A stretch of DNA of 64,000 nucleotides. Origin: an uncultured Bacteroidota bacterium (GTDB taxonomy: Bacteria; Bacteroidota; Bacteroidia; Bacteroidales; SZUA-534). Below the pieces are notes generated by a model. It worked only from the letters and a program-made list of their open reading frames with translations, searched no databases and was not told the DNA's origin. The position numbers and the translations under genes were made by a program. The stretch spans positions 68,086 through 132,085 of the forward strand of contig CAMKOM010000003.1 in the NCBI GenBank assembly GCA_946414435.1. The letters are read 5' to 3'. Of this stretch, positions 251 through 14,024 are shown one piece after another (the stretch's first letter is position 1; every line of letters begins with the position of its first letter).

Positions 251-3200
251 TCAAAGTGTCAGTTTCACCCCCGCAATCACGCTTCGCGAAGCAGGATAAA
301 CGCCTGAATCAGTGCCACTTGCCACTTCGGGGTCGTAGCCCTTGTAGCGTGTGGCGGTGAACAGGTTGCTGCCCGTGGCAAACACCCGCAACTGCGCGTT
401 GTATTCCTTTGGAAGCGGCACGTTGTAACCGATGGTCAGTTCGCGAAGTTTCAGATAACCAGCATTTTGCACATATCGGCTGTCGATGTGGGCGAACGGC
501 CGCGGACGGCTTGCCAGCGGCAGCGTGTTGCCGCCGTTTTCGGGTGTCCACGAGTCCTTGACGGTTGCCAGAACATTGTACGAATCGCCCGTCAGTTCGA
601 GCCTGCGGCCCAGCGCGTTATACACCTTGTTGCCCACGCTGAACCCGAACGATGCCGAAAAATCGATGCCTTTCCAGTTCACTTGCGTCGAGAACCCGCC
701 AGTCAGTTTCGGTTGGATGCTGCCCAGAATCACGCGGTCGTTGCCGTCGATGCGGCCGTTGCCGTCGATGTCTTCAAACTTCAGGTCGCCAGGCTGCGGC
801 GTCTGACCGTTGATGGTTGGCAATTTGGTCACGTCCTCGCCGCTCTGCACAATGCCGCCGAACTTCAGCCCGTAGAATGCGCCCAGCGGCTCGCCCTTGC
901 GCAGAATCTGCTGATTGTCAGAACCTTGAATCACATTATTGGTCGTTCCCATATCGGTGATTCGGTTTTGGTTCAATGCGGCGTTCGCCGATGCCGTCCA
1001 CGACAGCCGTTTGCGCTCAACCAGCGTTGTGTTCACGGCCAGTTCTACGCCTTTATTCACCACATTTCCAACATTTTGCAACTGTGTTGTCACACCCGTC
1101 GAGAAGCCCACAGGCACGTCGAGCAGCAGGTCGCTCGTTTTCTTGTAATAGATGTCGAAAACAAAGTCTAACTTATTGTTATACAGTCCCAAATCGAAAC
1201 CAGCATTGTAACTTGCCGTTGTTTCCCACTTCAAGTTGTCGTTGGCCGTGTTCTTCTTTGCGTAACTGCTCGAACCGCCGTAAGAGCCTGTGGCATACGA
1301 AGTTGTGAAAGCGTAATCGCTGATTTCCTGATTGCCCACAACGCCGCCCGTCAAGCGGATTTTCAGGTAGGTCACCTTGCTGAAAGTGCTCATAAACGCT
1401 TCTTTATCAACGTTCCACGACAGTCCGAGCGATGGGAAATAGCCCCAGCGGTGGCTGTGCGCAAAGCGGCTCGAATTGTCGGCGCGGAAAGTGGCCGTCA
1501 GGTTGTATCTGTCACTCAATGTGTAGTTTACGCGAGCGATGAGCGAATTCAGTTTCGCCTCGCTGATGCCCGTTTGCGGCGTGTAGATGCCCGAGCCGTC
1601 GCCCAAATTGTACTGTTTCAGCACCTCGTTTGTGAAGTGATTGGTGCGCACAACGCTGTTGGTCGATGTTGATGTCTGACGTGTGAAACCTGCCAGAAAA
1701 TCAATCGATTGGCTGCCGCCCAAATCCTTCTGATAGGTGGCTGTGTATTCCTGCTGCCAAACGTCGGTCTGACGGTTGCCCGTGCCGCCCACGCCTTCAG
1801 TGGCAAGGCCCAGCGACGTGTACGCACCCGAAAAAGTGTTCTGCGTCAAGTGCTCGCTGTTCAGCCCGACCGACGCTTTAAGTGTCAGATTGCCAACCGT
1901 ATAACTACTCCAAACATTCGAGAGCAGATAGTTGTTCAGGTTTTCGGCCACGCTTTCGCGAAGGTCGTAAACAGGGTTGGCCGCGTGGTCGCCGATGGCG
2001 AAATAGGCGTACTCGTATGGGTTGCTGAAATTGTAGTCGCCGTTGGCGTTATAAACCTCAACCACAGGCGGCATAAGCAGCGCATAGACGAAACTGTTGG
2101 TGATTCCTGCCGAGAATGGCGACGAGTTGAAAACCTGCTTTTCGGTGGTCGTCAGGCCGCGCTGACGGATGCGTCCGTAAGTTGTGTTCACGCCGAAGCG
2201 CACCTGCTTGCGCGGTTCCCATTCCACGTTGGTGTGGAAGTTATATCGTTGAAAACCAGAGTTCAAAACAATGCCGTCTTGGTCGGTGTAGTTGGCCGAG
2301 AAGGTGTAGCGGCTCTTGTCGCCCGCACCCTTCACGCTCAAGTCGTGCACCTGCTGAACGGCTGTCCGCAGAACGGCGTCCTGCCAGTCGGTGCCGTTGC
2401 CCAGAGCCGCAATCTGCTCGTCGGTGTAACCGCCCTTGTTGCTGAAATATTTCTTCTGAAAATCAGCCCATTCACGCGCGTTTAAAAGGTCGAGTTTGTG
2501 GCTCACGCGGCTCAAGCCGATGCTGTAGCCATAGACAATGCCGCCGAATTTCTCGCCCGCCTTGCCCTTTTTGGTCGTTATCAGAATCACGCCGTTCGCA
2601 CCGCGCGACCCGTAAATGGCTGTCGCAGAGACGTCTTTCAGCACCTCAACCGACTCAATGTCGTCGGGGTTCACCGTCGAGAGCGGATTCAGGCTGCCCT
2701 CAATCGAGCCCAGACCCGTGCCCGTGTTGGCCGCGTCCTTGAAATAGATGAAACCGTCAATCACGTAGAGCGGCTCGTTGCTCGCATTCACCGAGTTGCC
2801 GCCGCGGATGCGGATGTGGCTGTCGGCGCCAGGCTGTCCGCTGCTTGCCGTAACGGCCAGTCCCGCAACCTTTCCGCTCAACGCCTTGTCAACCGATGGC
2901 GCCGCCGTGCGGCTGATGGCTTCGGCCTTGACCGTGGCCACACTGCCCGTCAGTTGCGTGCGTTTCTGCGTGCCGTAGCCCACAACAACCACCTCGCTCA
3001 ACTTGTTCAGGTTCTCTGTCAGTTGAACCTCAATAGGTTCCGATGCCTCGTACACGTCGATTTCCTGCGAGCGGTAGCCCACAAACTGAATCAGCAGCGT
3101 GAGCGGAAGTTTCACTTTTGTTTTGAGCGTGAAGTTGCCGTCAAGGTCGGCCACCGTGCCCAATTCGTTGCCCGTTGTCGGCACAATGGTTGACCCGATG

Positions 3201-3313
3201 AGCGGGTCGCCCGTCCGAGCGTCGGTCACGCGGCCAGTTATGGTGGTGGTCTGCGCCGACGCCGAACTTGCTGACACAAAAGCAATTATAATTATGAGTA
3301 ATATCTTTTTCAT
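251..3313 (-). CDS. SusC/RagA-family TonB-linked outer membrane receptor
   Basis: Long ORF. I place the start at the ATG at 3311-3313, giving the signal peptide MKKILLIIIIAFVSASSASAQ. It has an N-terminal carboxypeptidase-D-like regulatory domain (TITGRVTDARTGDPLIGSTIV) and a plug motif (IESVEVLKDVSATAIYGSRGANGVILITTKKGK). The C-terminus is beta-barrel-like. Confidence 0.9.
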   Translation of the reverse strand: MKKILLIIIIAFVSASSASAQTTTITGRVTDARTGDPLIGSTIVPTTGNELGTVADLDGNFTLKTKVKLPLTLLIQFVGYRSQEIDVYEASEPIEVQLTENLNKLSEVVVVGYGTQKRTQLTGSVATVKAEAISRTAAPSVDKALSGKVAGLAVTASSGQPGADSHIRIRGGNSVNASNEPLYVIDGFIYFKDAANTGTGLGSIEGSLNPLSTVNPDDIESVEVLKDVSATAIYGSRGANGVILITTKKGKAGEKFGGIVYGYSIGLSRVSHKLDLLNAREWADFQKKYFSNKGGYTDEQIAALGNGTDWQDAVLRTAVQQVHDLSVKGAGDKSRYTFSANYTDQDGIVLNSGFQRYNFHTNVEWEPRKQVRFGVNTTYGRIRQRGLTTTEKQVFNSSPFSAGITNSFVYALLMPPVVEVYNANGDYNFSNPYEYAYFAIGDHAANPVYDLRESVAENLNNYLLSNVWSSYTVGNLTLKASVGLNSEHLTQNTFSGAYTSLGLATEGVGGTGNRQTDVWQQEYTATYQKDLGGSQSIDFLAGFTRQTSTSTNSVVRTNHFTNEVLKQYNLGDGSGIYTPQTGISEAKLNSLIARVNYTLSDRYNLTATFRADNSSRFAHSHRWGYFPSLGLSWNVDKEAFMSTFSKVTYLKIRLTGGVVGNQEISDYAFTTSYATGSYGGSSSYAKKNTANDNLKWETTASYNAGFDLGLYNNKLDFVFDIYYKKTSDLLLDVPVGFSTGVTTQLQNVGNVVNKGVELAVNTTLVERKRLSWTASANAALNQNRITDMGTTNNVIQGSDNQQILRKGEPLGAFYGLKFGGIVQSGEDVTKLPTINGQTPQPGDLKFEDIDGNGRIDGNDRVILGSIQPKLTGGFSTQVNWKGIDFSASFGFSVGNKVYNALGRRLELTGDSYNVLATVKDSWTPENGGNTLPLASRPRPFAHIDSRYVQNAGYLKLRELTIGYNVPLPKEYNAQLRVFATGSNLFTATRYKGYDPEVASGTDSGVYPASRSVIAGVKLTL

Positions 3314-3332
3314 AGATAAAATCCGAGTGAAA

Positions 3333-3358
3333 GGGTTGCGGACCGAGCGGCCCGCCCC
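3333..3358 (-). promoter_or_regulatory. Intercistronic GC-rich hairpin between the binding-protein gene and the SusC-like gene
   Basis: On the minus strand, GCGGGCCGCUCGGUCCGC (3355-3338) folds into a 7-bp stem (one G-U pair) with a 4-nt loop. It is flanked by GGG/CCC and has no U-tract. Confidence 0.45.
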
Positions 3359-3393
3359 TGTATTCAAAAACTTTTATGATGTTGGTAATCAGA

Positions 3394-4239
3394 CTATTCC
3401 TGTGCCAGGTCTTTCGATGGTAGTTTCAGCAGGCCGTATTGGTGCAGATACTGCGCGCCGTTGGTCAGGGTCCACTGCACAAAATTGTTGAGCAGCGCGT
3501 TCGAGTGGTCGTAGGCGAAAGCCGCATTGCCCACAGGAATCTCGCTGTAGCGTGCGTGCTCGAGCAGAGTCAGAATCTCGTCGAGTTGGCCGTCGGCCAG
3601 CACCTGCTCACCCTGTTTGTCAAGGTCGAGCGGCAGCAGAGCGATGTCTTTCTTCAGTTGGCGGCTCTCAAGGTCGAAAATATTTGACAATGTGCTGATT
3701 GTGACGCCCCACGGGTCGCGGCTCACGGCCACAGTCAGGTAAGAGTCGTCGCCCGAAATCTTCTTTCCGCGATAGTCGGCAGCCGCCTCGTCGAAATGCT
3801 CGGCATAGAACCGCGACACCGACTGTTGGCCAGTTGCGGTGTAGATGTGGATTTTCTGCTCGGTGGCTGTCGGCTCGTCGTCCTCAAACAGGTCCTCAAC
3901 AAAGAAGAGCGCCTTAATCCGTTTTGCGTTCAGGCGGCGACCAATCAGCCCCGCCGCTTCCGACTCTTTGGCCGAAACGGGCAACACCGCGTAGCGCGCA
4001 AAGTTCACACCGTCGGCGCTGTTGCTCACAACCGAAAGGCTGTTCTTCTCGCCAGCCTGCGCCTTGCCAGCCTTAAACACAAACTCAACGCCCGTGTTGG
4101 TTTTGCTGTATTCGTCGGCCCACTTCTCAACAAGCGGTTTGACCGAATTTGGCACGTGCACCGTAACTTGTTGGCTTTGAGCCAAAACCGATGCCTGAAA
4201 TCCTAAAACTATTGCTACTGTATATATTATCTTTTTCAT
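3394..4239 (-). CDS. Secreted periplasmic-binding-protein-fold protein (PstS / PBP type 2-like); ligand unknown
   Basis: ATG at 4237-4239 and signal peptide MKKIIYTVAIVLGFQASVLAQ. The N-terminus (VTVHVPNSVKPLVEKWADEYSKTNTGVEFVF) and C-terminus (FVQWTLTNGAQYLHQYGLLKLP) resemble PstS-type binding proteins from memory. It is the first gene of an operon with the SusC-like gene. Confidence 0.55.
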   Translation of the reverse strand: MKKIIYTVAIVLGFQASVLAQSQQVTVHVPNSVKPLVEKWADEYSKTNTGVEFVFKAGKAQAGEKNSLSVVSNSADGVNFARYAVLPVSAKESEAAGLIGRRLNAKRIKALFFVEDLFEDDEPTATEQKIHIYTATGQQSVSRFYAEHFDEAAADYRGKKISGDDSYLTVAVSRDPWGVTISTLSNIFDLESRQLKKDIALLPLDLDKQGEQVLADGQLDEILTLLEHARYSEIPVGNAAFAYDHSNALLNNFVQWTLTNGAQYLHQYGLLKLPSKDLAQE

Positions 4240-4332: not shown

Positions 4333-4407
4333 TCACTCGTTGCAACAGCAACACATTCGCATTCGTTTTGTCATTTCCATTGTTTTAATCCGTTTCATTT
4401 CTCTCAT
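4333..4407 (-). CDS. Candidate regulatory leader peptide MREMKRIKTMEMTKRMRMCCCCNE
   Basis: A 24-codon ORF begins about 10-20 nt after the predicted -7 box and ends 93 nt before the binding-protein ATG. It has four consecutive Cys codons (TGT TGC TGT TGC, 4353-4342) and six ATG codons. Coding status is unproven. Confidence 0.45.
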   Translation of the reverse strand: MREMKRIKTMEMTKRMRMCCCCNE

Positions 4408-4423
4408 CACATTTTTGACGATG

Positions 4424-4557
4424 CAAAAGTGCAATGTTTGGAAATATCCACCAAATAGTTTAATTATAACGGAAAATATAACTACAAAATCCACTTTCAT
4501 AGAATCTAATTCTTTGCACCCCCTCAAATAAGGCGGGTGCGTAGAATAATATTCTAC
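4424..4557 (-). promoter_or_regulatory. Promoter plus upstream operator module of the binding-protein/SusC operon
   Basis: On the minus strand there is a -7-like box TGCACTTTTG (4433-4424) and a 15-nt block GAAATATCCACCAAA (4441-4455) identical to 13745-13759. Two 13-bp palindromes are present: AGAATCTAATTCT (4501-4513) and AGAATAATATTCT (4543-4555, inside the 17-bp perfect palindrome 4541-4557). Their centres are 42 bp apart. Confidence 0.6.
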
Positions 4558-4660
4558 CAACACGGTAGATTGGTAGGTTGATAGAACGTTTTTTGTGGTG
4601 TTTTTATTGGGATTTTGTAGGGTTGCACAGCGCGGTTTGTAGGACTGACGCACAAATTAT

Positions 4661-4778
4661 GTAGGGCTGTCACACCGTGGCAGCCGCAAATTGCAAATGC
4701 AAACCGCAATTTATCGCAATCAACCATTCATTACGCGGCTGCCGTAATACGACAGCCCTATAGCCCGGATGATAATCA
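4661..4778. repeat. Composite repeat: arm A (GTAGGGCTGTCACACCGTGGCAGCCGC, 4661-4687) plus 77-nt arm B (4702-4778)
   Basis: Arm B is repeated directly at 6108-6184 with a few mismatches, and arm A at 6196-6221. Parts of A and B are mutually complementary (TAGGGCTGTC/GACAGCCCTA and GCAGCCGC/GCGGCTGC). Arm B overlaps the stop codon of the ATPase gene. Confidence 0.8.
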
Positions 4779-5948
4779 ATAGTTTAATCCAAAAGCCCAG
4801 AGCGGCACAACGTTGCCTGAACCATATTCAATGTCGTCTTTCACCACAAAACCATCGTTCACACTAGCAATCTGCCGCAGCCCCTTACTCTTGCCGCCGA
4901 CTTCGAATGTAATATTATCTATTTTGAAATCAGCAACTTCCGATGCTGTAACTTTATGATTGACTCTCATCTGATTAAAGAAAATCGTCTCTCGGACATT
5001 GCCGATGTATGTTGCATTGCCGCCCAAAACGTATGCTAAATTGGTGTTATCCAGATAAATTTTCTCAACCTTGCCCAACCCGATTATTCCGCCTGTCGCA
5101 TCGCGCAACTGACCAATCATTCCGGCGCGTTCCATATAGTAGAAATAGTTGCCAACGTCGTTACGGCTCACGTTTATCATTTTCGAAATCTTGTCCAAAA
5201 CCGGCTTGAACGGCGAGCTTTCGGCAACAATCGCAAGTAGTTTTTTCAGCTTCTGCCCTGTTGCAACGTTCATTTTGGCAAACTGCGGAATGTCCACTTC
5301 CATAGTAAAATTTATCACTTGATTCAGTTCAACATCGAACCGGCTGTCTGTGGCAAACGGATAGTAGCCGCGTTGCAGATAGTCGCGGAACAGTGGCAGC
5401 GGATGACGCTCGGCGGCTATCTCGGCGCGATTTGCAAGAATATCTTCCAACTCGTATTTCGGAACCGTAATCTTATGAAACATAGCAAGATACTCACGAA
5501 ACGACAGACCTTGCATATAATACATTGGCGCACGACGGCTTAAGTCGGCCTCACCTTTGTTGATGTCGAGTATCGACGAGCCTGTGAAAGCGATTTTCAA
5601 ATCGGGGTGAGTGTCGTAAATCTGCTTCAGTTCTCTCGACCAATTCGGATATTTATGTATCTCATCTATAAACAAATGCTGCCCGCCCTCGCGGCTGAAC
5701 TCATCGGCAGTATCGACTAACGAATGAGCGGCAAAATAGGTGTTGTCGGCCGAAATGTAGAGAATCCGCTCACGGTCGAAGTTTTGCTTGATATATTGCA
5801 GAAACAGAATTGTCTTGCCAACACCGCGCGGCCCAACCAAACCGAAAAGTCGGTCATTCCAATTGATTCGCTCGTACATATATCGCTGAAAATCAACAGG
5901 CACATTTGCCAACTGATTCCTCATATACGTGATTAGGTTCGTATCCAT
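4776..5948 (-). CDS. AAA+ ATPase with DUF4143-type C-terminal domain (COG1373-like)
   Basis: Start placed at the ATG at 5946-5948 (MDTNLITYMRNQL). Walker A is GPRGVGKT and Walker B-like is HLFIDEIH. The C-terminal region is typical of DUF4143 proteins, from memory. Confidence 0.8.
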   Translation of the reverse strand: MDTNLITYMRNQLANVPVDFQRYMYERINWNDRLFGLVGPRGVGKTILFLQYIKQNFDRERILYISADNTYFAAHSLVDTADEFSREGGQHLFIDEIHKYPNWSRELKQIYDTHPDLKIAFTGSSILDINKGEADLSRRAPMYYMQGLSFREYLAMFHKITVPKYELEDILANRAEIAAERHPLPLFRDYLQRGYYPFATDSRFDVELNQVINFTMEVDIPQFAKMNVATGQKLKKLLAIVAESSPFKPVLDKISKMINVSRNDVGNYFYYMERAGMIGQLRDATGGIIGLGKVEKIYLDNTNLAYVLGGNATYIGNVRETIFFNQMRVNHKVTASEVADFKIDNITFEVGGKSKGLRQIASVNDGFVVKDDIEYGSGNVVPLWAFGLNY

Positions 5949-5980
5949 AGCATTAGTTTTTTTGCAAATATAAGCGATAT

Positions 5981-6060
5981 TGCACTTCGTAGGTGCAGTT
6001 TTGTATAATAATTTGCACTTCGTGGGTGCAAATTTAAGAGAAGATTGCACCTTCCGGGTG
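5981..6060 (-). promoter_or_regulatory. Three phased hairpin or palindromic operator-like sites upstream of the ATPase gene
   Basis: The sites are TGCAC-TTCGTAG-GTGCA (5981-5997), TTTGCAC-TTCGTGG-GTGCAAA (6012-6033) and a degenerate CACC-TTCCG-GGTG (6048-6060). Their centres are about 32-33 bp apart. The first abuts the -7 box TATATTTG (minus strand, 5972-5965). Confidence 0.55.
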
Positions 6061-6107
6061 AAATTATTAGGTTTTACTTACGAGAACAACGCTTATTTTG
6101 GAACACC

Positions 6108-6221
6108 AACCGCAAATTAACGCAATCAACCATTCATTACGCGGCTGCCGTAATACGACAGCCCTACGGCCGCGAATGATAATTACAACCAATCCGTAGG
6201 GTGTCACACCGTGGCAGCCGC
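6108..6221. repeat. Second copy of repeat arm B (6108-6184) followed by arm A' (6196-6221)
   Basis: This is a direct repeat of 4702-4778 and 4661-4687, with the order of arms inverted relative to the left copy. Together the two copies bracket the ATPase gene. Confidence 0.8.
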
Positions 6222-6286
6222 ACACCGCCACAACGCGCCAAAATTGGGAACATTGCCATCAATTACCAACATTTCACACCGCCAAA

Positions 6287-6422
6287 CGCCGAAGGCGTGA
6301 CATACCACAGGCCGGGGTGTAAACCCCGGTTGGGCGCCAGCGCATAAAATGAACGCCGAAGGCGTGGCACGAAATCATCGGCGGCATTAAACACGTAGAG
6401 ACGCGATTAATCGCGTCTCTAC
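6287..6422. repeat. Cluster of small GC hairpins (REP/BIME-like)
   Basis: CGCCGAAGGCG occurs at 6287-6297 and 6354-6364. CCGGGGTGTAAACCCCGG is at 6312-6329. A perfect 28-nt palindrome, GTAGAGACGCGATTAATCGCGTCTCTAC, is at 6395-6422. Confidence 0.75.
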
Positions 6423-6482
6423 ACACATTATCAATATTTTGCCGCTTTATACAGATTCACAAACACCCAGAATAAGGCAATA

Positions 6483-7529
6483 TTATATCTCGTTCAATAT
6501 TATCTTAAGTTCCTGACTATTATTGTTTTCAATCAGTTGCTCTTTCCAAACTTCAATTTTATTATTTTGATTTACTGCGCAATTCCAACTTTCCGCAAGT
6601 TTGTCTGCATTAAACTGACATAGCATTTCTTTTATGTTGTTCAAGTTCATATACAATCGTAAAAATATTTGTGGAACGTTATATAGTCTTTGGTCATTGA
6701 TAATAATATCGGACTTACCACCTGCAGTGAATTGGTCTCGAACATTCGGACAAACCACACCTTTTTCCATTGCCAACCACATTGCTAAACGATTGAACTT
6801 GTCACCGTGATAACCAAACATTTCGGGGAACAAACAATATGCCTGTAATTTGAGATTTTCCTTTTCTTCTTCTTTTAGATAATTCCACAAACGTAGTATA
6901 ATGTTGCTTGCTTGTTTTTCTTGTTCATCATCATCATCCCCCATCCACCATAGGCGTTCCCCTTGTTGAAGTTGGCTTTTGTAAAACTTAACAACAGTTT
7001 TTATTGGGTTGTCTTGCTTCCTTAATTCATCGTACGGTACGTGTATTTTATCGAAGAACGTTTCACCTTGCCCAAGTTCCATATTTATCAAATACCGGGG
7101 TGAGTGGGTTACAACAACGTCAGACAAACATTCTTCATAAGGGCGACAACGGAATTGTATCGGGTCGCACATTTTACCGAACAACATATAAATTCGTTCT
7201 ACACTATCTACTCTTGTTCCCTCCGCCACGCTACTACCGGTGCTTCGCCAATGGTTTTCTTTTGTGGTCTTAACTTCTATTCCATAAAAATCGTTCGCAA
7301 CAATGTCAGGAAATCTTTGTCCGGAAATCAATTTAATTGAATTTTCAAACGGTGTGTGCAATGAGTTTTCTGTCAAAACATCCAAAACCTCATCCTCTAA
7401 TTTGTTTCCCAATAATTTGACATATTTTTCCGGTTTCTCTGTCGCCCGTCGGTGTAATGTCAACAGAGAATCGTTTAGCAAACTTTCAAAAGCTTGTTTT
7501 TGGGGTTCCGGATTAACTGAAACTATCAT
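6483..7529 (-). CDS. Putative Type II restriction endonuclease (PD-(D/E)XK)
   Basis: Its start overlaps the stop of the upstream C5-methyltransferase by 4 nt (ATGA at 7526-7529). The motif FPDIVANDFYGIEVKTTK fits PD...E-x-K. The gene is AT-rich relative to its neighbours by eye. Confidence 0.65.
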   Translation of the reverse strand: MIVSVNPEPQKQAFESLLNDSLLTLHRRATEKPEKYVKLLGNKLEDEVLDVLTENSLHTPFENSIKLISGQRFPDIVANDFYGIEVKTTKENHWRSTGSSVAEGTRVDSVERIYMLFGKMCDPIQFRCRPYEECLSDVVVTHSPRYLINMELGQGETFFDKIHVPYDELRKQDNPIKTVVKFYKSQLQQGERLWWMGDDDDEQEKQASNIILRLWNYLKEEEKENLKLQAYCLFPEMFGYHGDKFNRLAMWLAMEKGVVCPNVRDQFTAGGKSDIIINDQRLYNVPQIFLRLYMNLNNIKEMLCQFNADKLAESWNCAVNQNNKIEVWKEQLIENNNSQELKIILNEI

Positions 7530-8860
7530 TCTTCACCAAAATAAAGTGGCCAAACTTGTTGTAAGCGACGCGCTATGTTGTATGCCAAAACAGGCGGAAC
7601 GGCATTCCCAATAATTTTGTAGGCGCCAGAAGGGCTGACTGCGAATTTTTTCCCATTGTATGAATTAGAAAAGACGAAATCGTAATCGGGCGGAAATGTC
7701 TGTATCATAGCGCATTCGCGCGGTGTCAAACGGCGCTCTGATTTTCCTGCTTTCAATTCGTCGGTATATTTGCCTCCGTGTTCAGCGGATAATCTGCGGT
7801 ATTCAATGTTGCCGTGGTGTTCGGAACGAATTGTCGGACCAATGTCGTCAAGATTCACTTCATTTTGCCCTTGACAATGCGCCCCCATATACTTGGCTTG
7901 CGAATAGTATTTTTGAGAATCGTCATTTGAATCCGATGGCTCATCTAATGATTCAAAAACATTCCTAACAGTCTGAAATTGAGCCAAACGTTTGTCTTTT
8001 ATATGGTAGTTATGCGTTGGCTTTGGGTAAGGATTGTATTTTTCGGGTATACTTTCTTTTTCAAGATTTTTTAATGCAGTTGGGTTTAACAAATCCTTAC
8101 GGATTCCTATAAATATAACTCTCTCGCGAGACTGCGGCACACCATAATCGGCGGCGTGCAATACTTGTGGCGGCAAAACAATATAATCGTTCCCTGCTGC
8201 AGAAGAAAAATCCTTTTGTATAATATCTTTTACATTGCCTAAATTTGTAAGTCCTTTAACATTCTCTGCAACAAATATTTTCGGCCGAGTAATATCAATT
8301 ACTTCCTTCATCCAAAAATACAATTTGCCACGAGTCTCTTCTGTTGCAATCTCGCTAGTAATATAATTCCCGTTGTGGTCTTTGTGCGATTCAAAACCCC
8401 TTCTTTTGCCAGCCACACTAAAATCCTGACAAGGGAAACCGCCTGTTACCACATCAATGTTTTTAGGGAAAATATCATTGCAATCACGGTGCATTTTTAC
8501 CAAATCCACCACACTTTCTGTACGATATATACCGTCATCGTCATTTGATTTGGAAAAATAGTGTACCCAAGCAGCCCTTGCATCAGGCAGAATATCGTTT
8601 GCAAATACTGTTTGAAATATTGTAGGGGTCAGCCTTACAAAATCGTTGTCTAAATGTTCCGCAACAAAATCGGGACACATTTTTTCATTTACGCTGCCCT
8701 TATGAGTAATAAAGCCGCCTTCAAAGCCCAAATCCATTCCTCCGCATCCAGAGAAAAGGGATAATACTCGTAATTTTTTGCCTTCCCCTAGTTTAATATC
8801 CTTGCTGAAAGGATATGAAAATTGTGGCTCCTCAACATTGTTTTTTGATTCGTCTTCCAT
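7526..8860 (-). CDS. DNA (cytosine-5)-methyltransferase
   Basis: The canonical motifs are present: I LFSGCGGMDLGF, IV GGFPCQDFSVAGKR, VI ENVKGL, VIII QSRERVIFIG and X GNAVPP. Confidence 0.95.
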   Translation of the reverse strand: MEDESKNNVEEPQFSYPFSKDIKLGEGKKLRVLSLFSGCGGMDLGFEGGFITHKGSVNEKMCPDFVAEHLDNDFVRLTPTIFQTVFANDILPDARAAWVHYFSKSNDDDGIYRTESVVDLVKMHRDCNDIFPKNIDVVTGGFPCQDFSVAGKRRGFESHKDHNGNYITSEIATEETRGKLYFWMKEVIDITRPKIFVAENVKGLTNLGNVKDIIQKDFSSAAGNDYIVLPPQVLHAADYGVPQSRERVIFIGIRKDLLNPTALKNLEKESIPEKYNPYPKPTHNYHIKDKRLAQFQTVRNVFESLDEPSDSNDDSQKYYSQAKYMGAHCQGQNEVNLDDIGPTIRSEHHGNIEYRRLSAEHGGKYTDELKAGKSERRLTPRECAMIQTFPPDYDFVFSNSYNGKKFAVSPSGAYKIIGNAVPPVLAYNIARRLQQVWPLYFGEE

Positions 8861-8923
8861 TTTTGCGCTAATGCTTTTTGCGCTTGCTTATCTGTATTCA
8901 GGTACAAACGGACAATCCAAAAC

Positions 8924-8957
8924 GGCAAAAAAATGTGGACTTGAACTTTATCCACAT
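8924..8957 (-). terminator. Rho-independent-type terminator
   Basis: Minus strand has the stem ATGTGGA/TCCACAT (8957-8951 / 8939-8933) followed by a T7 run. Confidence 0.6.
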
Positions 8958-9122
8958 CCTAGGCCGTCAGAATTGCCCGTTATCACAGATAAGTCAAGCC
9001 CACGCAATAGCGCAGGCATCTTTTTTGACTTATTCGTGTGATAACATTTCTAAAATTTCTGACGTTTTAGGATATGCCGAATTATCAAAGCAAACGCTTG
9101 ATTAATAATATGTTATTTAAAA

Positions 9123-9160
9123 ATTACTTTCTGTTTCTTACAGTTCGTTTAATGTTTTAT
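9123..9160. repeat. About 40-nt direct repeat, copy 1 (ATTACTTTCTGTTTCTTACAGTTCGTTTAATGTTTTAT)
   Basis: It matches 10193-10233 (ATTTACTTTCTGTTTCTTATACTATTCGTTTAATTATTTAT) with a few mismatches and indels. The two copies bracket the DUF1016 gene. Confidence 0.75.
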
Positions 9161-10137
9161 ATCTCTTTTAATTTGTTTTCAAATAGTTTTTTATCAGGCA
9201 GTTGCAATTGATATTGCGCCACCAGTGTTGGCGACAGGCTTCGTGATAAAGCGTACTCCACAACTTCGTCGTCTTTGTCGTGGCACAAAAGTATGCCAAT
9301 ACTTGGATTCTCGTGCGGTTTCTTTACGTCGCGGTCCAATGCTTCAAGATAAAAATCCAATTGGCCAAGGTATTCAGGCTTGAATTTGCCAACTTTCAAT
9401 TCAAATGCCACCATTGCGCCAATGCCTCGGTGAAAGAACAGCAAATCGACGTAAAAATCCTGGCAGCCTACTTGCAACCGAAATTCTTCCGCCATAAATA
9501 TGAAATCGTTACCAAGTTCAAGTATGAACTGCTTCATATTCGCAACCAATGCTTTTTGCAATTCAGATTCGGAATGCGATTCGGGCAGCCCCAAAAACTC
9601 AAGCACGTATGTGTCTTTAATATCGGGCACGTTCATTTCTCTCACCGCTGGTGAGAGTTTTGCCGATGTCAGGCTTCTCTCATATTGAGCCGCATCAATC
9701 TGCCGTTCCAATTCTCTCTTTGTCAAATGATTACGACGGCACATATCAATGTAAAACAACCTTTCCTCGTCGGTTTTACATCTCGACATAATAGTGATAT
9801 TATGTGTCCACGACAATTCTCTCACCGCTGGTGAGAGTTTTTCGTCGGAACTATACAACTCATAGAATTGCTTCATACGCCAAAGGTTCTTGTCGCTAAA
9901 TCCTTTGGCATCAGTAATTTCAGTTGCAATGTATGCCGCCAATTGTGTTACAACTCCTTTTCCCCAACTGGCTTCTTTAACTTTTATGCTTATCACCTGC
10001 CCAATCTGCCAATATAAATCAACAAGCGTTCGATTGGCCACTTCAAATACCGTCTGCCGCGCGGCTCGAATTCGTTGCGCCAGAAATTCAAACACATCTT
10101 TTGTCGTTGCATCGATATTTGATATTTCAGTGTTCAT
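9157..10137 (-). CDS. PDDEXK nuclease, YhcG / DUF1016 family
   Basis: The N-terminal region (LVDLYWQIGQ...GKGVVTQLAAYI...FSDKNLWRMKQFYELY) and the C-terminal motifs (DLLFFHRGIGAMVAFELKVGKFKPEYLGQLDFYL) match this family from memory. Confidence 0.85.
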   Translation of the reverse strand: MNTEISNIDATTKDVFEFLAQRIRAARQTVFEVANRTLVDLYWQIGQVISIKVKEASWGKGVVTQLAAYIATEITDAKGFSDKNLWRMKQFYELYSSDEKLSPAVRELSWTHNITIMSRCKTDEERLFYIDMCRRNHLTKRELERQIDAAQYERSLTSAKLSPAVREMNVPDIKDTYVLEFLGLPESHSESELQKALVANMKQFILELGNDFIFMAEEFRLQVGCQDFYVDLLFFHRGIGAMVAFELKVGKFKPEYLGQLDFYLEALDRDVKKPHENPSIGILLCHDKDDEVVEYALSRSLSPTLVAQYQLQLPDKKLFENKLKEI

Positions 10138-10192
10138 AGTTGGACTTTTATTCCTGCAACTGCTCTAATTTCTTGAGTAGTTGATTATTAGG

Positions 10193-10233
10193 ATTTACTT
10201 TCTGTTTCTTATACTATTCGTTTAATTATTTAT
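10193..10233. repeat. About 40-nt direct repeat, copy 2
   Basis: See 9123-9160. The preceding 10183-10200 (GATTATTAGGATTTACTT) also resembles 6063-6079 (ATTATTAGGTTTTACTT) upstream of the ATPase gene. Confidence 0.7.
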
Positions 10234-10326
10234 GCTTCTTCAACTATTTATGCTAATTGCGAAACTGTCAGTTTCGTAATTGATTCCTAATTTTTCAATA
10301 TTTTACTAAAACCCTGCAAGTTATAT

Positions 10327-11175
10327 CTAAATCAATTTCGTTATCATTTCATCGGCTTGCAACTGCATCTTGCAGAAAGCAAACCATCGCTTTCCCAAAT
10401 CCTTGATTGAAGCGCCAATGTGGTACACATCGCTATCGATAATCAGGAACCTGTCGTGCGACTTGGTAAAGATACACAAATCTATTGGTTCGTACTGCTT
10501 ATTGTGCTGCGCCAGCGCCACATTTAATGACGGCGAAGTCTGTTGCGTGTAGATTTTGGCCGTTACATTTTTGGCGCGCTCGGCCAACCGCAGCAAGACT
10601 GTTTCATCAACATAGTTATCTATCAGCACAATACGTTTCCTTGCCGAGCGAATCAGATTGTTGACAAAAGCGAACGGCTCAAGCATCTGTCCATCGTAAA
10701 AAATTCCCTCGACAGGCGGCAGCGAAGTGCGCACAAAGAAGTCGATTTTGTTAGAATGCTCTTCAAGTATTTTTTGTTGTGTTTCAAGTTGGCCCTCAAT
10801 GTTGGCCAGTCGGTTGTTAAATGCGTATCCTCTTAAAAGATAATCTTTTAATATACCTGTTGCCCATATTCTAAATAGTGTGCCTCTCTGACTTTTAACA
10901 CGATAGCCAACGGAAATAATTACATCGAGATTGTAATATTGGGTTCGGTATTTTTTCCCGTCTGCGGCAGTTGTCAAGTAATCCTTGACAACTGAATTTT
11001 TATCTAACTCTTTCTCTCTGAATATGTTATTAATATGAAGGCTGATATTTTGTTTTGTGGTTTCAAAAAGCACAGTCATTTGTTGCTGTGTCAGCCACAC
11101 AGTTTCCTCACTCAACCGCACTTCAAGCTTTACGGCATCGTCGGGTTGGTATAATATGATTTCGTTCCCTGTCAT
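10327..11175 (-). CDS. RhuM-family protein with a conserved C-terminal module
   Basis: The N-terminus carries YNLDVIISVGYRVKSQRGTLFRIWATGILKDYL, typical of Virulence_RhuM. The C-terminus carries IVLIDNYVDETVL...HDRFLIIDSDVYHIGASIKDLGKRWFAF. Confidence 0.8.
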   Translation of the reverse strand: MTGNEIILYQPDDAVKLEVRLSEETVWLTQQQMTVLFETTKQNISLHINNIFREKELDKNSVVKDYLTTAADGKKYRTQYYNLDVIISVGYRVKSQRGTLFRIWATGILKDYLLRGYAFNNRLANIEGQLETQQKILEEHSNKIDFFVRTSLPPVEGIFYDGQMLEPFAFVNNLIRSARKRIVLIDNYVDETVLLRLAERAKNVTAKIYTQQTSPSLNVALAQHNKQYEPIDLCIFTKSHDRFLIIDSDVYHIGASIKDLGKRWFAFCKMQLQADEMITKLI

Positions 11176-11335
11176 AAAATGCTAAATCTTCGCCTTAACG
11201 CGAACTACCAAGTTTTTATCGGTAGTTGATATTTAGTTTCGCCCCACACAAAAGGCTACCAAATATAGAAACAAAATGAAAACAAAAAAGGCCCGCAACT
11301 TTCGCCACGAGCCCGTCAAAACACAGAAATTAACA

Positions 11336-12520
11336 TCATTTCAAGGCTAAAGCAATTCTTTCCAGAGCCTCACGCAAAACAACGCGCGGCGTGGCCACGT
11401 TGAGCCGCATAAATCCTTCGCCGCCGGGGCCGAACATTTCGCCGTCGTTCAGGGCAAGGCGGGCGCGGTTTATAAATAGGTCGTTCAGTTGGGTGTGGTT
11501 GAGTCCGAGCTGTCGGCAGTCGAGCCAGACAAGAAACGATGCCTGCGGACGCAACGGCCTGATTCCCGGCAGGTTATAGGCGCAGAAGTCTTCAACCAGG
11601 CAGATATTATCTTCAACATAATCAAGCATTTGGCGGCGCCACTCTTCGCCTTGCGCGAAGGCCGCAATGGTGGCAATGGGCGCAAAAAGCGTCGGTTCGT
11701 CGAACTCGTTGGCCGACATCCACTTGAACAGCGGGCGGCGCAGAGCCGGGTTGGGCACAATGGCGTATGAGCTCACAATTCCGGCAATGTTGAACGTTTT
11801 CGACGGCGCGCCAAGCGTGATGCTGCAACGCGCGGCAGCCTCGGACACGGTGGCAAACGGAATGTGGCGGTGGCCGAAAAGAGCCAGGTCGCAGTGAATC
11901 TCGTCGCTGATGACGATGACGTTGTTGCGGTCGCAGATGTCGGCCACGCGCTCAAGCGTTGCGCGGTCCCAGACAATGCCGCCGGGGTTGTGCGGATTGC
12001 TTATCACCAGCATCCGGTTGCGCGGGTCAGCAGCCTGACGCTCAAGCAGTTCAAGGTCCATACGGTAGCCGGTGAGCGCGCCGTTGGCGGTTACTTCGCA
12101 AAGCTGATTGTTCACCACTTCGCGGCCGTTGCCAAGCGTGGTCAGGCGGAACGGATGATAGACCGGCGGCTGAATGATGACGCGCTCGTCGGGTTTCAGC
12201 AAGGCATTGATTGCCATACCGATACCTTTCACAACACCCGGCACGTAAGTCAGCCATTCGCGCTCAACCTGCCACTGATGGTGGTCCAGAATCCAGCGCT
12301 GAATCGACGTCCAAAGCTCGTCGGGCGTGGCGGTGTAGCCGTAAATGGGGTGCTCAACGCGTCGCCGAAGAGCGTCAACAACAAAAGGCGGCGTGGCAAA
12401 ATCCATATCGGCCACCCAGAGCGGAAGCAAATCGGCTCGACCGTAACGCTGCTGCAAAACGCTGTGTTTAAGGTCGTTGCTGCCCGCGCGGTCAATCACT
12501 TCATCAAAATTATATTTCAT
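11336..12520 (-). CDS. patB: MalY/PatB-type cystathionine beta-lyase (class I/II aminotransferase fold)
   Basis: The N-terminus is MKYNFDEVIDRAGSNDLKH...LPLWVADMDF and the PLP-lysine region is APSKTFNIAG. There is a 4-nt overlap with the upstream metY-like gene. Confidence 0.85.
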   Translation of the reverse strand: MKYNFDEVIDRAGSNDLKHSVLQQRYGRADLLPLWVADMDFATPPFVVDALRRRVEHPIYGYTATPDELWTSIQRWILDHHQWQVEREWLTYVPGVVKGIGMAINALLKPDERVIIQPPVYHPFRLTTLGNGREVVNNQLCEVTANGALTGYRMDLELLERQAADPRNRMLVISNPHNPGGIVWDRATLERVADICDRNNVIVISDEIHCDLALFGHRHIPFATVSEAAARCSITLGAPSKTFNIAGIVSSYAIVPNPALRRPLFKWMSANEFDEPTLFAPIATIAAFAQGEEWRRQMLDYVEDNICLVEDFCAYNLPGIRPLRPQASFLVWLDCRQLGLNHTQLNDLFINRARLALNDGEMFGPGGEGFMRLNVATPRVVLREALERIALALK

Positions 12521-13704
12521 CCCAAAGCCTGTTTAATATCTTTAAAAATGTCGTTAACATCTTCAAGACCAACGCTTAAGCGGATGGTTGTCTGCTTGAC
12601 GTCCACTTCGCTCAGCTGCCTGTTGGTGAAGTTTCCAAAGATAGTTGATGCCGGGTGAATTGCCAGCGTCTTGTTGTCGAACAGGTTGGTGGCGCGCAGA
12701 ATGAGCTGCAGGCGGTTCAGGAAGCTGAAACAGGCGTCGCGGTCGGCAAGGTCGATGGTGAGCATTGCGCCGCCCGTCGGGCCAAACTGCCGTTGCGCCC
12801 GCTCGTAGTACGGATTGTCGGGCAAACCGATATAATTTACTGATTTTATGCTTTTTAACTTTTGCAGTTTCTTTGCAAGTTTAAGCGCGTTGGCCGACTG
12901 CACACGGTAGCGCGCGTCCAGCGTCTCAAGGCCGAGAGTCTGCATATAGGCGGCGTGCGGAGTCATATACGAGCCCAGATTGAACAGAATCTCGTACGCA
13001 ATCCGCTCGTGAAAGCCGGGAACCGTGCCATAATCGATGACCAGTCCGCCGAGCGATGTGGCGCCACCCGAGACATATTTGGTGCTCGAAACCAACTCAA
13101 TATCAACGCCGAAGTCGGCCAAGTGCGTCTCGGTGAACGGAATGGCCGTGGAATCGACAATCAGCGGAACATTACACGCGTGAGCCACTTGCGCAATCTG
13201 CTGCAAGTCAGCCACTTCGAGCTGCGGATTCGACACTGCTTCAAGAAAAACGCAGCAGGTGTTATCGTCGATTTTAGAGCGCAGCTGTTCAACATCGTTC
13301 ATATTACAGACGCGCGCTTCAACGCCAAATCGCGCCAGCGTGCGGGTTATCAGGTTGAAAGTGTTGCCGAAAAGGTGTTTCGACGCCACAATATTCTTCC
13401 CATTCCCCGCAAGGGCGATGAACGTTGACGCGATGGCCGCCATACCCGAATTGAAAGCCGTCACGTGGGTCGCCCCGGTGATTGCCTTCACCTTCGACTC
13501 GAAGTAGGTAACTGTCGGATTTTCAACGCGCGAGTAGTCAGGTGCTTCAATGCGGCCGCAGAACGCGTCGGACATTGTCTTGGCGTCGTCAAACTGATAG
13601 GCCACCGTGTTATAAACCGGCATACTTATTGCCCCGTAGGCGTCGCGCCGCGCAAACTGCGTATGTATCGCTTTTGTCTGTCTTTTAATAGTTTTCTGTG
13701 ACAT
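12517..13704 (-). CDS. metY: O-acetylhomoserine/O-acetylserine sulfhydrylase-type PLP enzyme (MetY-like)
   Basis: Start placed at the ATG at 13702-13704 (MSQKTIKRQTKAIHTQF). The PLP region is SSTKYVSGGATSLGG, with Cys/Met-metabolism PLP family features. Confidence 0.85.
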   Translation of the reverse strand: MSQKTIKRQTKAIHTQFARRDAYGAISMPVYNTVAYQFDDAKTMSDAFCGRIEAPDYSRVENPTVTYFESKVKAITGATHVTAFNSGMAAIASTFIALAGNGKNIVASKHLFGNTFNLITRTLARFGVEARVCNMNDVEQLRSKIDDNTCCVFLEAVSNPQLEVADLQQIAQVAHACNVPLIVDSTAIPFTETHLADFGVDIELVSSTKYVSGGATSLGGLVIDYGTVPGFHERIAYEILFNLGSYMTPHAAYMQTLGLETLDARYRVQSANALKLAKKLQKLKSIKSVNYIGLPDNPYYERAQRQFGPTGGAMLTIDLADRDACFSFLNRLQLILRATNLFDNKTLAIHPASTIFGNFTNRQLSEVDVKQTTIRLSVGLEDVNDIFKDIKQALG

Positions 13705-13726: not shown

Positions 13727-13858
13727 CAAAAGTACAATGCGACAGAAATATCCACCAAACAACAATTCAATTATGGAAAATACAACCACAATTAGCCTGA
13801 TAATAGAATTTATATCTAAACCACCCCTAAAAATGCCTTACGTATAGAATGACATTCT
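13727..13858 (-). promoter_or_regulatory. Promoter plus upstream operator module of metY-patB, paralogous to 4424-4557
   Basis: The -7 box TACTTTTG lies on the minus strand at 13734-13727. An identical 15-mer lies at 13745-13759. The palindromes are AGAATGACATTCT (13846-13858, perfect) and AGAATTTATATCT (13805-13817, imperfect), with centres 41 bp apart. Confidence 0.6.
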
Positions 13859-14024
13859 GCCTACCGAACTTTTTTCGGGCTAAAATCGCCGAAAAGTTTT
13901 TAAAGTTAGCCGCCTATAGGTATCTTTGGCCGCCGATTTTTTGAATAGTGACCGAGCAAAACGGTTGCCAACAGAAAACCGACTTAAAACTTATAACTTC
14001 AGAACTTAAAACTTATATAAAGAT

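What the first reader, a model, noticed from the sequence alone, without database searches (positions are those of the whole stretch)
4441..4557. Promoter/operator module shared with the metY-patB operon: paired AGAAT-N3-ATTCT palindromes about 41-42 bp apart
About 145 nt upstream of this operon aligns colinearly with the region upstream of metY (13727-13870, same strand). By eye roughly two-thirds or more of positions match; this was not computed. The shared parts include an identical 15-mer (GAAATATCCACCAAA, 4441-4455 = 13745-13759) covering the presumptive -33 region. They also include two 13-bp palindromes per locus: AGAATCTAATTCT and AGAATAATATTCT here, and AGAATTTATATCT and AGAATGACATTCT at metY. 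The centre-to-centre spacing is four helical turns (42 and 41 bp). That is the signature of a dimeric transcription factor binding two operators upstream of the promoter (about -80 and -120). Sharing it with a sulfhydrylase / C-S lyase operon points independently of the Cys/Met leader peptide to sulfur-amino-acid control.
Basis: partly seen in the sequence, partly recalled or inferred. Interest (0 to 1): 0.7.

Follow-up and report, generated by a model that had tools for sequence, protein, structure and literature searches.

The report
Lrp-type operator boxes upstream of sulfur operons
Two sulfur/methionine-related operons in this Bacteroidales genome share a promoter with four evenly phased binding boxes that match the classic Lrp (feast/famine regulator) consensus, so this is an ordinary kind of amino-acid control seen here in a group where it has apparently not been described.

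Summary
The two upstream regions align over 153 columns at 67% identity (z about 19 against shuffles). The exact pattern AGAAT-N3-ATTCT occurs three times in 64 kb, against 0.05 expected, and only in these two regions. The fourth "palindrome" has two mismatches.

AGAATwwwATTCT is the published E. coli Lrp consensus. In related Bacteroidales the same module sits upstream of metY-type genes. In Prevotella-like contigs an Lrp/AsnC gene is transcribed divergently, with its ATG 5-7 bp from the distal box. In 19 Chryseobacterium loci a pair of such boxes abuts an Lrp homologue. In seven loci metE is the divergent neighbour.

Across eight lineages the conservation falls in four phased boxes, spaced 41, 30 and 31 bp, plus the -7 element. 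The spacers are at background. The "identical 15-mer" is box 4 fused to the -33 TTTG.

The best reading is an Lrp-family nucleoprotein promoter tied to methionine and sulfur metabolism. The regulator gene is not in the window. Binding, effector and sign of regulation are untested.

One twist: close relatives drive the same transporter operon from a different operator (ATACCA-N6-TGGTAT), and the junction lies at the -7 box.

This is a new member of a known kind.

The parts
4543..4555 (.). Transporter operon, distal Lrp-type box D (AGAATAATATTCT; extended palindrome GTAGAAT-N3-ATTCTAC)
   Evidence: Exact match to AGAATwwwATTCT. Conserved in L006, L046, L054, L127 and L131 with a changed N3 centre.
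4501..4513 (.). Transporter operon, proximal Lrp-type box P (AGAATCTAATTCT), 42 bp from D
   Evidence: This column block scores 11-12 of 13 against the consensus in all nine promoters scored (two are transporter-operon copies).
4471..4483 (-). Transporter operon, box 3 (AGTTATATTTTCC on the minus strand): a degenerate Lrp-like box 30 bp from P
   Evidence: Mean match 8.3 of 13 against background 5.0; 1.31 bits per column against 0.5-0.9 in the spacers.
4440..4455 (-). Transporter operon, box 4 plus the -33 element (TTTGGTGGATATTTCC on the minus strand). TTTG is at 4452-4455.
   Evidence: It is the most conserved block of the module (1.83 bits) and lies 31 bp from box 3.
4424..4431 (-). Transporter operon, -7 promoter element CACTTTTG, 20 nt downstream of the -33 TTTG
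   Evidence: Sequence. Conserved as TAnnTTTG in all lineages. The promoter consensus is from established knowledge of Bacteroidetes promoters. The transcription start is not mapped.
4333..4380 (-). Leader ORF MEMTKRMRMCCCCNE in the roughly 180-nt 5' leader. A second, separate control layer.
   Evidence: Runs of Cys codons are conserved in the leaders of L001, L003, L133 and L141.
3394..4239 (-). First gene of the transporter operon: a 281-aa lipoprotein-like binding protein with an oxyanion-binding (PstS/ModA-like) fold
   Evidence: No Pfam or PDB sequence hit. AlphaFold model pLDDT 70.6. Foldseek top hits are PstS and ModA, TM 0.5-0.6.
251..3367 (-). SusC-type TonB-dependent receptor, second gene of the operon. 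SusD and GerE genes follow in relatives.
   Evidence: Pfam Plug, TonB_dep_Rec_b-barrel and CarboxypepD_reg. Gene contexts.
13846..13858 (.). metY-type operon, distal box D (AGAATGACATTCT)
13805..13817 (.). metY-type operon, proximal box P (minus strand AGATATAAATTCT). One arm is degenerate. 41 bp from D.
13775..13787 (-). metY-type operon, box 3 (GGTTGTATTTTCC on the minus strand)
13744..13759 (-). metY-type operon, box 4 plus -33 TTTG (TTTGGTGGATATTTCT on the minus strand)
13727..13734 (-). metY-type operon, -7 element TACTTTTG
   Evidence: Perfect TAnnTTTG.
12517..13704 (-). 'metY': a 395-aa Cys/Met-metabolism PLP enzyme of the sulfhydrylase/gamma-synthase family. Exact activity is not assigned.
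   Evidence: Pfam PF01053, 313 bits. Below all NCBIfam equivalog cut-offs.
11336..12520 (-). patB, a PatB-family C-S lyase
   Evidence: NCBIfam TIGR04350, 453 bits against a cut-off of 340.

Best explanation
The module is the control region of an Lrp/AsnC-family (feast/famine) regulator.

Anatomy. It holds four 13-bp boxes on one face of the helix. Their centres lie roughly 131, 90, 60 and 29 nt upstream of the inferred transcription start, spaced 41-42, 30 and 31 bp.
- Boxes D and P, the two distal ones, are near-consensus AGAATwwwATTCT palindromes. They are probably high-affinity nucleation sites.
- Boxes 3 and 4, the two proximal ones, are degenerate. Box 4 sits in the spacer right after the -33 TTTG of a Bacteroidetes-type promoter (-33 TTTG / -7 TAnnTTTG).

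Inferred mechanism. Lrp dimers within an octamer fill the weak proximal boxes cooperatively and wrap about 100 bp of DNA. An amino-acid effector shifts this assembly; methionine is the most plausible candidate. Occupancy of box 4 would then set RNA-polymerase access. I favour effector-dependent repression over activation, roughly 55:45.

Controlled operons. The same module drives the metY-type/patB operon. In this lineage it also drives an oxyanion-binding-protein/SusC-type receptor operon, which additionally carries a Cys-codon leader peptide.

Shown here: the boxes, their phasing, their conservation, their match to the Lrp consensus, and the linkage to lrp genes in relatives.
Inferred: binding, oligomeric state, effector and sign of regulation.
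For: 1. The motif. AGAATwwwATTCT and yAGhAwATTwTdCTr are the published E. coli Lrp consensus sequences (PMC5554404). Box D here matches 13 of 13 positions, and L006 and L046 carry AGAATTTTATTCT.

2. Linkage to the regulator gene.
- In L128 and L132 an Lrp homologue (37-39% identical to E. coli Lrp) is divergent from metY, with its ATG 6-7 bp from box D.
- The Prevotella protein P0174 carries PF13404, PF13412 and PF01037 and is listed in 262 blocks of the collection. In all five places shown it is divergent from a 429-aa MetY across a 190-bp intergenic region (L135-L139). In the one read in full (L139) that region holds the whole module.
- In 19 of 20 Chryseobacterium loci, and in one Flavobacteriales MAG, a perfect pair of boxes directly abuts an Lrp homologue. 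In seven Chryseobacterium loci metE is the divergent neighbour, and in L022 a cobalamin riboswitch precedes it.

3. Recognition helix. It is conserved: E. coli LSPTPCLERVRRLE against Bacteroidales LSPTPVFERQKRLE.

4. Footprint across eight lineages. The boxes carry 1.3-1.8 bits per column, the spacers 0.5-0.9. Spacer similarity between the two window copies is 30 of about 60 matches, against a null of 26.9 +/- 3.4, P = 0.22.

5. Phasing. Scoring every offset against the E. coli consensus gives four phased peaks: 10.4, 11.7, 8.3 and 8.3 of 13, against a background of 5.0 +/- 1.8.

6. Literature. Lrp targets are described as clusters of imperfect, helically phased sites. FL11 is described as switching between an effector-bound octamer on a long DNA stretch and apo dimers on single sites (PMC2995911).

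7. Further lineages. Pairs of boxes also precede MetY in a Cytophagaceae MAG (L072) and a Balneolaceae MAG (L033).
Against: - No Lrp/AsnC gene lies in the 64-kb window or in any fetched Salinivirgaceae locus. The cognate regulator in this genome is therefore assumed, not seen.
- Boxes 3 and 4 match the consensus only moderately (7-10 of 13). Their conservation could reflect another factor or promoter-specific needs.
- The 41-bp D-P spacing is four helical turns. The review I read reports two or three turns as the observed spacings.
- A GerE/LuxR regulator is also linked to these gene clusters.
- There are no expression or binding data, and the transcription start is inferred from consensus only.
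Confidence: 0.72

Rival explanations
1. The boxes are operators for a regulator of another family. The main candidate is the GerE/LuxR-type protein encoded at the end of the transporter cluster and right after MetY in Prevotella. The resemblance to the Lrp consensus would then be coincidental.
For: GerE genes are linked to both gene sets: L001 and L140 for the transporter cluster, L135-L139 for MetY-GerE. No lrp gene is in the window.
Against: The Chryseobacterium, L128, L132 and L047 pairs of boxes abut an Lrp homologue, and no GerE gene was noted beside the boxes there (no dedicated GerE search was run). The box equals the published Lrp consensus, and the Lrp recognition helix is conserved. 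Transporter operons that keep the GerE gene (L001, L140/L141) carry a different palindrome, ATACCA-N6-TGGTAT, which is a better candidate GerE site.
Confidence: 0.1
2. The boxes are bound by a global, leucine-type Lrp acting as a general feast/famine or nucleoid protein. The link to sulfur amino acids would then be incidental and not specific.
For: The box is the generic Lrp consensus. Pairs of boxes also occur beside non-sulfur genes: a 2-oxoacid dehydrogenase E2 gene in L047, and an HMGL-like synthase and biotin synthase in Arcicella L062. Many Chryseobacterium loci have no methionine gene next to lrp.
Against: The homologous four-box module was found only at metY-type and sulfur-transporter promoters in the complete metagenome scan. 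The lrp gene is divergent from metY (Prevotella) or metE (seven Chryseobacterium loci). The window holds no other good box.
Confidence: 0.15
3. The similarity is only the neutral trace of a promoter duplication, a mobile or dispersed repeat, or a transcribed RNA element, with no operator function.
For: The two copies are 67% identical over about 150 nt. The upstream part of the transporter promoter is clearly exchangeable between close relatives.
Against: Spacer similarity is at the level of shuffled sequence, while the boxes are kept across families. There are only two copies in the window and no other contexts in the metagenome scan. No Rfam family reaches threshold in either region. The module lies upstream of a consensus promoter.
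Confidence: 0.03

Closest known systems
E. coli Lrp and its multi-site promoters (ilvIH, gltBDF, pap)
   Same: Same box consensus, AGAATwwwATTCT. Clusters of imperfect sites in helical phase upstream of, and reaching, the core promoter. Control of amino-acid biosynthesis. The regulator's own promoter is also bound. The recognition helix is nearly the same.
   Different: The proteins are only 36-39% identical. The promoter is of the Bacteroidetes -33/-7 type. The D-P spacing is 41 bp, not about 30. The targets are metY, metE and a SusC/D-type uptake operon. The effector is unknown.
Archaeal FL11 and Ss-LrpB (Lrp family)
   Same: FL11 binds a 13-bp palindrome. Sites are regularly spaced and bound cooperatively with DNA wrapping. 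FL11 switches between an effector-bound octamer covering a long stretch and apo dimers on single sites (PMC2995911; PMC3597646).
   Different: Different half-site sequences, an archaeal basal transcription machinery, and different target genes.
Pathway-specific Lrp-family regulators of sulfur amino-acid genes (MdeR of Pseudomonas putida for methionine gamma-lyase; DecR/YbaO of E. coli for cysteine detoxification). Recalled from my own knowledge, not checked here.
   Same: A small AsnC-type regulator encoded next to, and controlling, a Cys/Met PLP-enzyme or sulfur amino-acid operon.
   Different: Those systems are catabolic or detoxifying and proteobacterial. No sequence relationship was tested here.
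MetJ, MetR, CymR and SAM riboswitches (known methionine/cysteine control systems)
   Same: The same physiological job, and the same kind of regulon (metY, metE, sulfur uptake).
   Different: Different protein families or RNA. No SAM riboswitch is present in the window regions. A SAM-I riboswitch co-occurs with Lrp boxes in the Balneolaceae locus L033.

Membership tests
Lrp/AsnC-family operator (cis element) | A 13-15 bp semi-palindromic box with an A/T-rich centre that matches the family member's consensus (for E. coli Lrp, AGAATwwwATTCT / yAGhAwATTwTdCTr) | tested here: met
   Box D of the transporter operon matches 13 of 13, its box P 12 of 13, and the metY boxes D and P 11 of 13 each. The consensus is taken from PMC5554404.
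Lrp/AsnC-family operator (cis element) | Several imperfect sites clustered and aligned on one face of the helix | tested here: met
   Four peaks at fixed offsets, spaced 41, 30 and 31 bp, in nine promoters from eight lineages. The 41-bp step is longer than the two or three helical turns quoted there.
Lrp/AsnC-family operator (cis element) | Cognate Lrp/AsnC gene next to the sites (autoregulated divergon) | tested here: inconclusive
   Met in relatives: L128, L132, L135-L139, 19 Chryseobacterium loci and L047. Not met in the window or in the Salinivirgaceae loci, where no Lrp homologue was found.
Lrp/AsnC-family operator (cis element) | Conservation of the boxes, but not the spacers, in orthologous promoters | tested here: met
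   1.3-1.8 bits per column in the boxes against 0.5-0.9 in the spacers. Spacer similarity is at the shuffle level.
Lrp/AsnC-family operator (cis element) | Demonstrated protein binding and amino-acid effector response | not testable with these tools
   Needs EMSA or footprinting, DAP-seq, or reporter assays.
Bacteroidetes housekeeping promoter (-33 TTTG / -7 TAnnTTTG) | Both elements present with a spacer of about 19-21 nt, upstream of the gene | tested here: met
   TTTG followed 20-21 nt later by CACTTTTG or TACTTTTG. TAnnTTTG is conserved in all lineages. The consensus itself is from established knowledge. The transcription start is not mapped.
Dispersed repeat / MITE | Many copies at unrelated loci and orientations, with the whole element conserved including non-functional parts | tested here: not met
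   Two copies in the window; the best other segment scores 17 against 43. The metagenome scan found eight stretches, all at metY or transporter promoters except one chance hit in a coding region. The spacers are not conserved.
cis-regulatory RNA (riboswitch or leader) | Match to a curated RNA family, or location inside the transcript | tested here: not met
   No Rfam hit in either module. The module lies upstream of the -33/-7 promoter.

The most novel reading that the evidence does not exclude
One Lrp orthogroup, 57-60% identical between Prevotella and Chryseobacterium, is a so-far undescribed master regulator of methionine synthesis across Bacteroidota. It is divergent from metY in Prevotella and from metE in Chryseobacterium, and box pairs also precede MetY in Cytophagaceae and Balneolaceae MAGs.

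In this Salinivirgaceae lineage its four-box control region has replaced the ancestral ATACCA-N6-TGGTAT operator of a sulfur-oxyanion SusC/D-type uptake operon. The replacement occurred by recombination exactly at the -7 element. Both promoter versions still circulate among strains whose transporter proteins are 98% identical. This would be a natural, ongoing regulon-rewiring event, layered on a Cys-codon leader-peptide attenuator.
Probability: 0.45. Interest if true: 0.6.

Novelty: new member of a known kind. Interest (0 to 1): 0.42.

Why it matters
Transcriptional control of amino-acid and sulfur metabolism in gut and rumen Bacteroidales is poorly mapped.

This module gives a concrete, testable regulator-operator pair for methionine synthesis (metY, metE) in Prevotella, Salinivirgaceae and Chryseobacterium. 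It also places a SusC/D-type outer-membrane uptake system with an oxyanion-binding lipoprotein in that regulon.

The natural promoter variants (Lrp module against ATACCA-type operator, on near-identical operons) are a ready-made experiment on how regulons are rewired by swapping upstream modules.

It does not reveal a new kind of mechanism.

Tried and rejected
- Lrp/AsnC gene in the window. tblastn with E. coli Lrp, E. coli AsnC, the Prevotella Lrp and the Chryseobacterium Lrp found nothing. The Salinivirgaceae loci were also negative.
- Pfam scan of all 55 window ORFs through an alignment id. The output lists only the top 25 families, so it could not be used to exclude a regulator.
- Rfam at gathering threshold and at E <= 1 on both modules. 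The only hit was a sub-threshold mir-449 match on an unrelated hairpin at 4664-4758.
- RNA-element and dispersed-repeat readings. Both rejected (see the rival explanations).
It was re-run as its reverse complement.
It is therefore not a complete census. Much of it is unrelated repeat families in Acidobacteriota and Nocardia, plus tandem arrays.
- A PDB sequence search with the binding protein found nothing. Only the fold search was informative.
- Spacer homology between the two window copies was tested as evidence for a recent duplication. None was detectable, so duplication against convergence is left open.
- Literature searches for an Lrp link to metY or metE in Bacteroidetes or Prevotella found nothing relevant. 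This covers only the open-access library.
- ATACCA-N6-TGGTAT was searched in the window. Only one chance-level match was found.

Full report
**Context**

The window comes from a Bacteroidales genome. The best protein matches are rumen "Salinivirgaceae bacterium" MAGs. Both operons in the finding run on the minus strand.

- The transporter operon starts with a 16-codon leader ORF, MEMTKRMRMCCCCNE (4333-4380). A 281-aa lipoprotein-like binding protein follows (3394-4239), then a SusC-type TonB-dependent receptor (251-3367).
- The second operon is a 395-aa Cys/Met-family PLP enzyme (12517-13704) plus a PatB C-S lyase (11336-12520).

**Observation check**

- A local alignment of the two upstream regions gives 103 identities in 153 columns (67%). 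The score is 43, against 10.5 +/- 1.7 for dinucleotide shuffles (z = 18.9). The best of 1424 other window segments scores 17.
- The 15-mer is identical at the stated coordinates.
- Exact AGAAT-N3-ATTCT occurs three times in 64 kb, against 0.05 expected. All three are in the two modules.
- The fourth element (13805-13817) has one degenerate arm.
- The spacings are 42 and 41 bp.

**Identity of the palindrome**

AGAATwwwATTCT and yAGhAwATTwTdCTr are the E. coli Lrp consensus sequences as quoted in PMC5554404. Box D of the transporter operon (tAGAATAATATTCTa) matches the 13-mer perfectly. Orthologous promoters carry AGAATTTTATTCT.

**Related loci**

1. Orthologous transporter promoters in L006, L046, L054, L127 and L131 keep both palindromes while the N3 centres change.

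2. A complete metagenome scan for box P plus the 15-mer returned eight stretches. One is a chance hit inside a coding region. The others lie upstream of the transporter operon, or of metY-type genes from other Bacteroidales lineages (L128, L130, L132, L133, L134). L111, from the genome scan, is another such promoter.

3. In L128 and L132 an Lrp homologue is transcribed divergently, with its ATG 6-7 bp from box D.

4. A widespread Prevotella Lrp/AsnC protein (P0174; PF13404, PF13412, PF01037) is divergent from a 429-aa MetY in all five places shown. The 190-bp intergenic region, read in full for L139, holds AGTATTTTATTCT twice (41 bp apart), then GATATTTTCT, ATTTGGAAGATATTTC and TAACTTTG.

5. 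The strict genome scan for two perfect boxes found 20 Chryseobacterium loci.
   - In 19 of them the pair directly abuts a 153-aa Lrp homologue that is 57-60% identical to the Prevotella protein. The twentieth is cut by the locus end.
   - In seven loci the divergent neighbour is metE. In L022 a cobalamin riboswitch precedes it.

6. Pairs of boxes also precede MetY in a Cytophagaceae MAG (L072) and a Balneolaceae MAG (L033). In L033 a SAM-I riboswitch lies in between.

7. The recognition helix of these proteins (LSPTPVFERQKRLE) is close to that of E. coli Lrp (LSPTPCLERVRRLE).

**Anatomy of the module**

I anchored nine promoters from eight lineages on the 15-mer and scored every offset against the E. 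coli consensus. Four peaks appear at fixed positions.

| Box | Mean match (of 13) | Information (bits per column) |
|---|---|---|
| D | 10.4 | 1.61 |
| P | 11.7 | 1.48 |
| 3 | 8.3 | 1.31 |
| 4 | 8.3 | 1.83 |
| -7 element | not scored | 1.55 |
| background / spacers | 5.0 +/- 1.8 | 0.5-0.9 |

- The centre-to-centre steps are 41 (42 in the transporter copy), 30 and 31 bp. That is four, three and three helical turns.
- Between the two window copies, spacer matches are 30 of about 60. The shuffle null is 26.9 +/- 3.4 (P = 0.22), and other lineage pairs do no worse.
- The 67% identity is therefore carried by the functional blocks. This is what selection on operators at fixed spacing predicts.
The -7 element TAnnTTTG follows 20-21 nt later.

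**Mechanism**

This part is inference. Lrp-family targets are described as clusters of imperfect, phased sites bound cooperatively. FL11 is described as switching between an effector-bound octamer on a long DNA stretch and apo dimers on single sites (PMC2995911).

I propose the same here.
- D and P nucleate binding.
- Boxes 3 and 4 are filled cooperatively.
- Box 4 lies between the -33 and -7 elements and controls polymerase access.
- An amino-acid effector, most plausibly methionine, shifts the assembly.
- In Prevotella the same sites must overlap the lrp promoter, which implies autoregulation.

Binding, effector and sign of regulation are all untested. The regulator gene is not in the window or in any fetched Salinivirgaceae locus.

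**Function of the co-regulated operon**

The 281-aa protein has no Pfam or PDB sequence match. A moderate-confidence model (pLDDT 70.6) resembles the phosphate- and molybdate-binding proteins PstS and ModA, with TM 0.5-0.6. Together with the Cys-codon leader, this fits uptake of a sulfur oxyanion. This too is inference.

**Evolution of the promoter**

- In the same-species contigs L054 and L127, the metY-type gene, patB, the module and the transporter genes are contiguous.
- In the window, a 6.7-kb island (about 4582-11284) sits between the patB terminator and box D.
- Several relatives drive the transporter operon from an ATACCA-N6-TGGTAT palindrome instead of the Lrp module. These are L001/L002 (89% protein identity), L003 (63%), L133 (38%) and L140-L142 (98%).
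- Similarity to the window resumes at the -7 element. L131 and L046 combine the Lrp module with the L141-type leader.
- The upstream module is therefore exchanged by recombination among close relatives. In more distant lineages the Lrp module belongs to metY, so the transporter copy is most likely the derived state.

**Comparison with known systems and verdict**

The element behaves like, and passes the testable criteria of, an Lrp/AsnC operator cluster. It is a new member of a known kind. I found no paper describing an Lrp link to metY or metE in Bacteroidota, but the search covers only the open-access library.

Interest is moderate. The mechanism is conventional. The regulon assignment, the inclusion of a SusC/D-type uptake system, and the naturally segregating promoter swap are worth following up.

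Noticed in passing
window 4582-11284: A 6.7-kb island sits between the patB terminator and box D. It carries a RhuM-like protein, a YhcG/DUF1016 nuclease, a C5 cytosine methylase, a 348-aa ORF and an AAA_14 ATPase. It is absent from the same-species contigs L054 and L127. L131 (about 10.9 kb) and L046 (about 4.5 kb) also have extra DNA between patB and the module, so this looks like an integration hot spot.
   Followed up: partly
window 4600-4760: The island end holds repeated TGTAGGG motifs and a long hairpin at 4664-4758. The hairpin gives a sub-threshold mir-449 Rfam match (29.7 bits against 60.4), presumably a chance match to the hairpin shape.
   Followed up: no
window 6285-6330 (-): An Acido-Lenti-1 RNA match above the gathering score (40.9 bits against 37) lies inside the island, between the AAA_14 gene and the 348-aa ORF.
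   Followed up: no
window 4333-4380 (-); L001 5034-5090; L003 9878-9935; L133 8758-8830; L141 9858-9905: A leader ORF with a run of four or five Cys codons after Met codons (for example MRMCCCCNE, MQMRCCCCDN, MQMQECCCCCMM) is conserved upstream of the binding-protein gene, whichever upstream operator is present. A hairpin follows it. It looks like a Cys-sensing leader-peptide attenuator.
   Followed up: partly
L001 4900-4950; L003 9775-9800; L133 8620-8645; L141 9735-9785: An alternative operator, ATACCA-N6-TGGTAT, often with a second TACCA-N5-TGGTA, precedes the transporter operon in relatives that lack the Lrp module. This includes strains whose binding protein is 98% identical to the window's. 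The junction with the window sequence is at the -7 element.
   Followed up: partly
window 4554-4581: The inverted repeat TACCAA-N9-TTGGTA lies just upstream of, and overlaps, box D of the transporter operon. It is conserved in L006 and L054, and absent from the metY copy. It may be a remnant or variant of the ATACCA-type operator.
   Followed up: no
L001 12861-13541; L140 16795-17508; L139 1882-2523: A GerE/LuxR-type regulator gene closes the binding-protein/receptor/SusD cluster, and directly follows MetY in Prevotella. It is a candidate second sulfur regulator and possibly the protein that binds ATACCA-N6-TGGTAT.
   Followed up: no
L033 6740-7300 (-): A Balneolaceae MAG stacks several elements in front of metY: two perfect and one degenerate Lrp-type box, a Cys/Met-rich small ORF (MKFSIQYRMNKPTCMRKCMCLMRT) with a terminator-like hairpin, and a SAM-I riboswitch (Rfam, 71.5 bits).
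   Followed up: partly
L021, L053, L057, L059, L066, L102, L103 (MAG CTSoil_022); L016, L101, L110, L116 (Bacteroidaceae MAG); L077: Arrays of three AGAAT-N3-ATTCT-like palindromes with a 21-bp period occur at many loci within single genomes. Some copies are identical to each other. They could be a large Lrp-type regulon or a repeat family.
   Followed up: no
L008, L012, L018, L024 and about 30 further Acidobacteriota loci; Nocardia L030, L038, L091, L106, L122: Dispersed repeat families of about 53-57 bp are bounded by AGAATCACATTCT- or AGAATGTGATTCT-type palindromes. They are unrelated to the module and filled much of the genome scan.
   Followed up: no
window 3394-4239 (-): The 281-aa family (1710 homologues, mostly Prevotella, no Pfam domain) has a predicted PstS/ModA-like oxyanion-binding fold, yet sits in a SusC/SusD-type operon rather than next to an ABC transporter.
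   Followed up: partly
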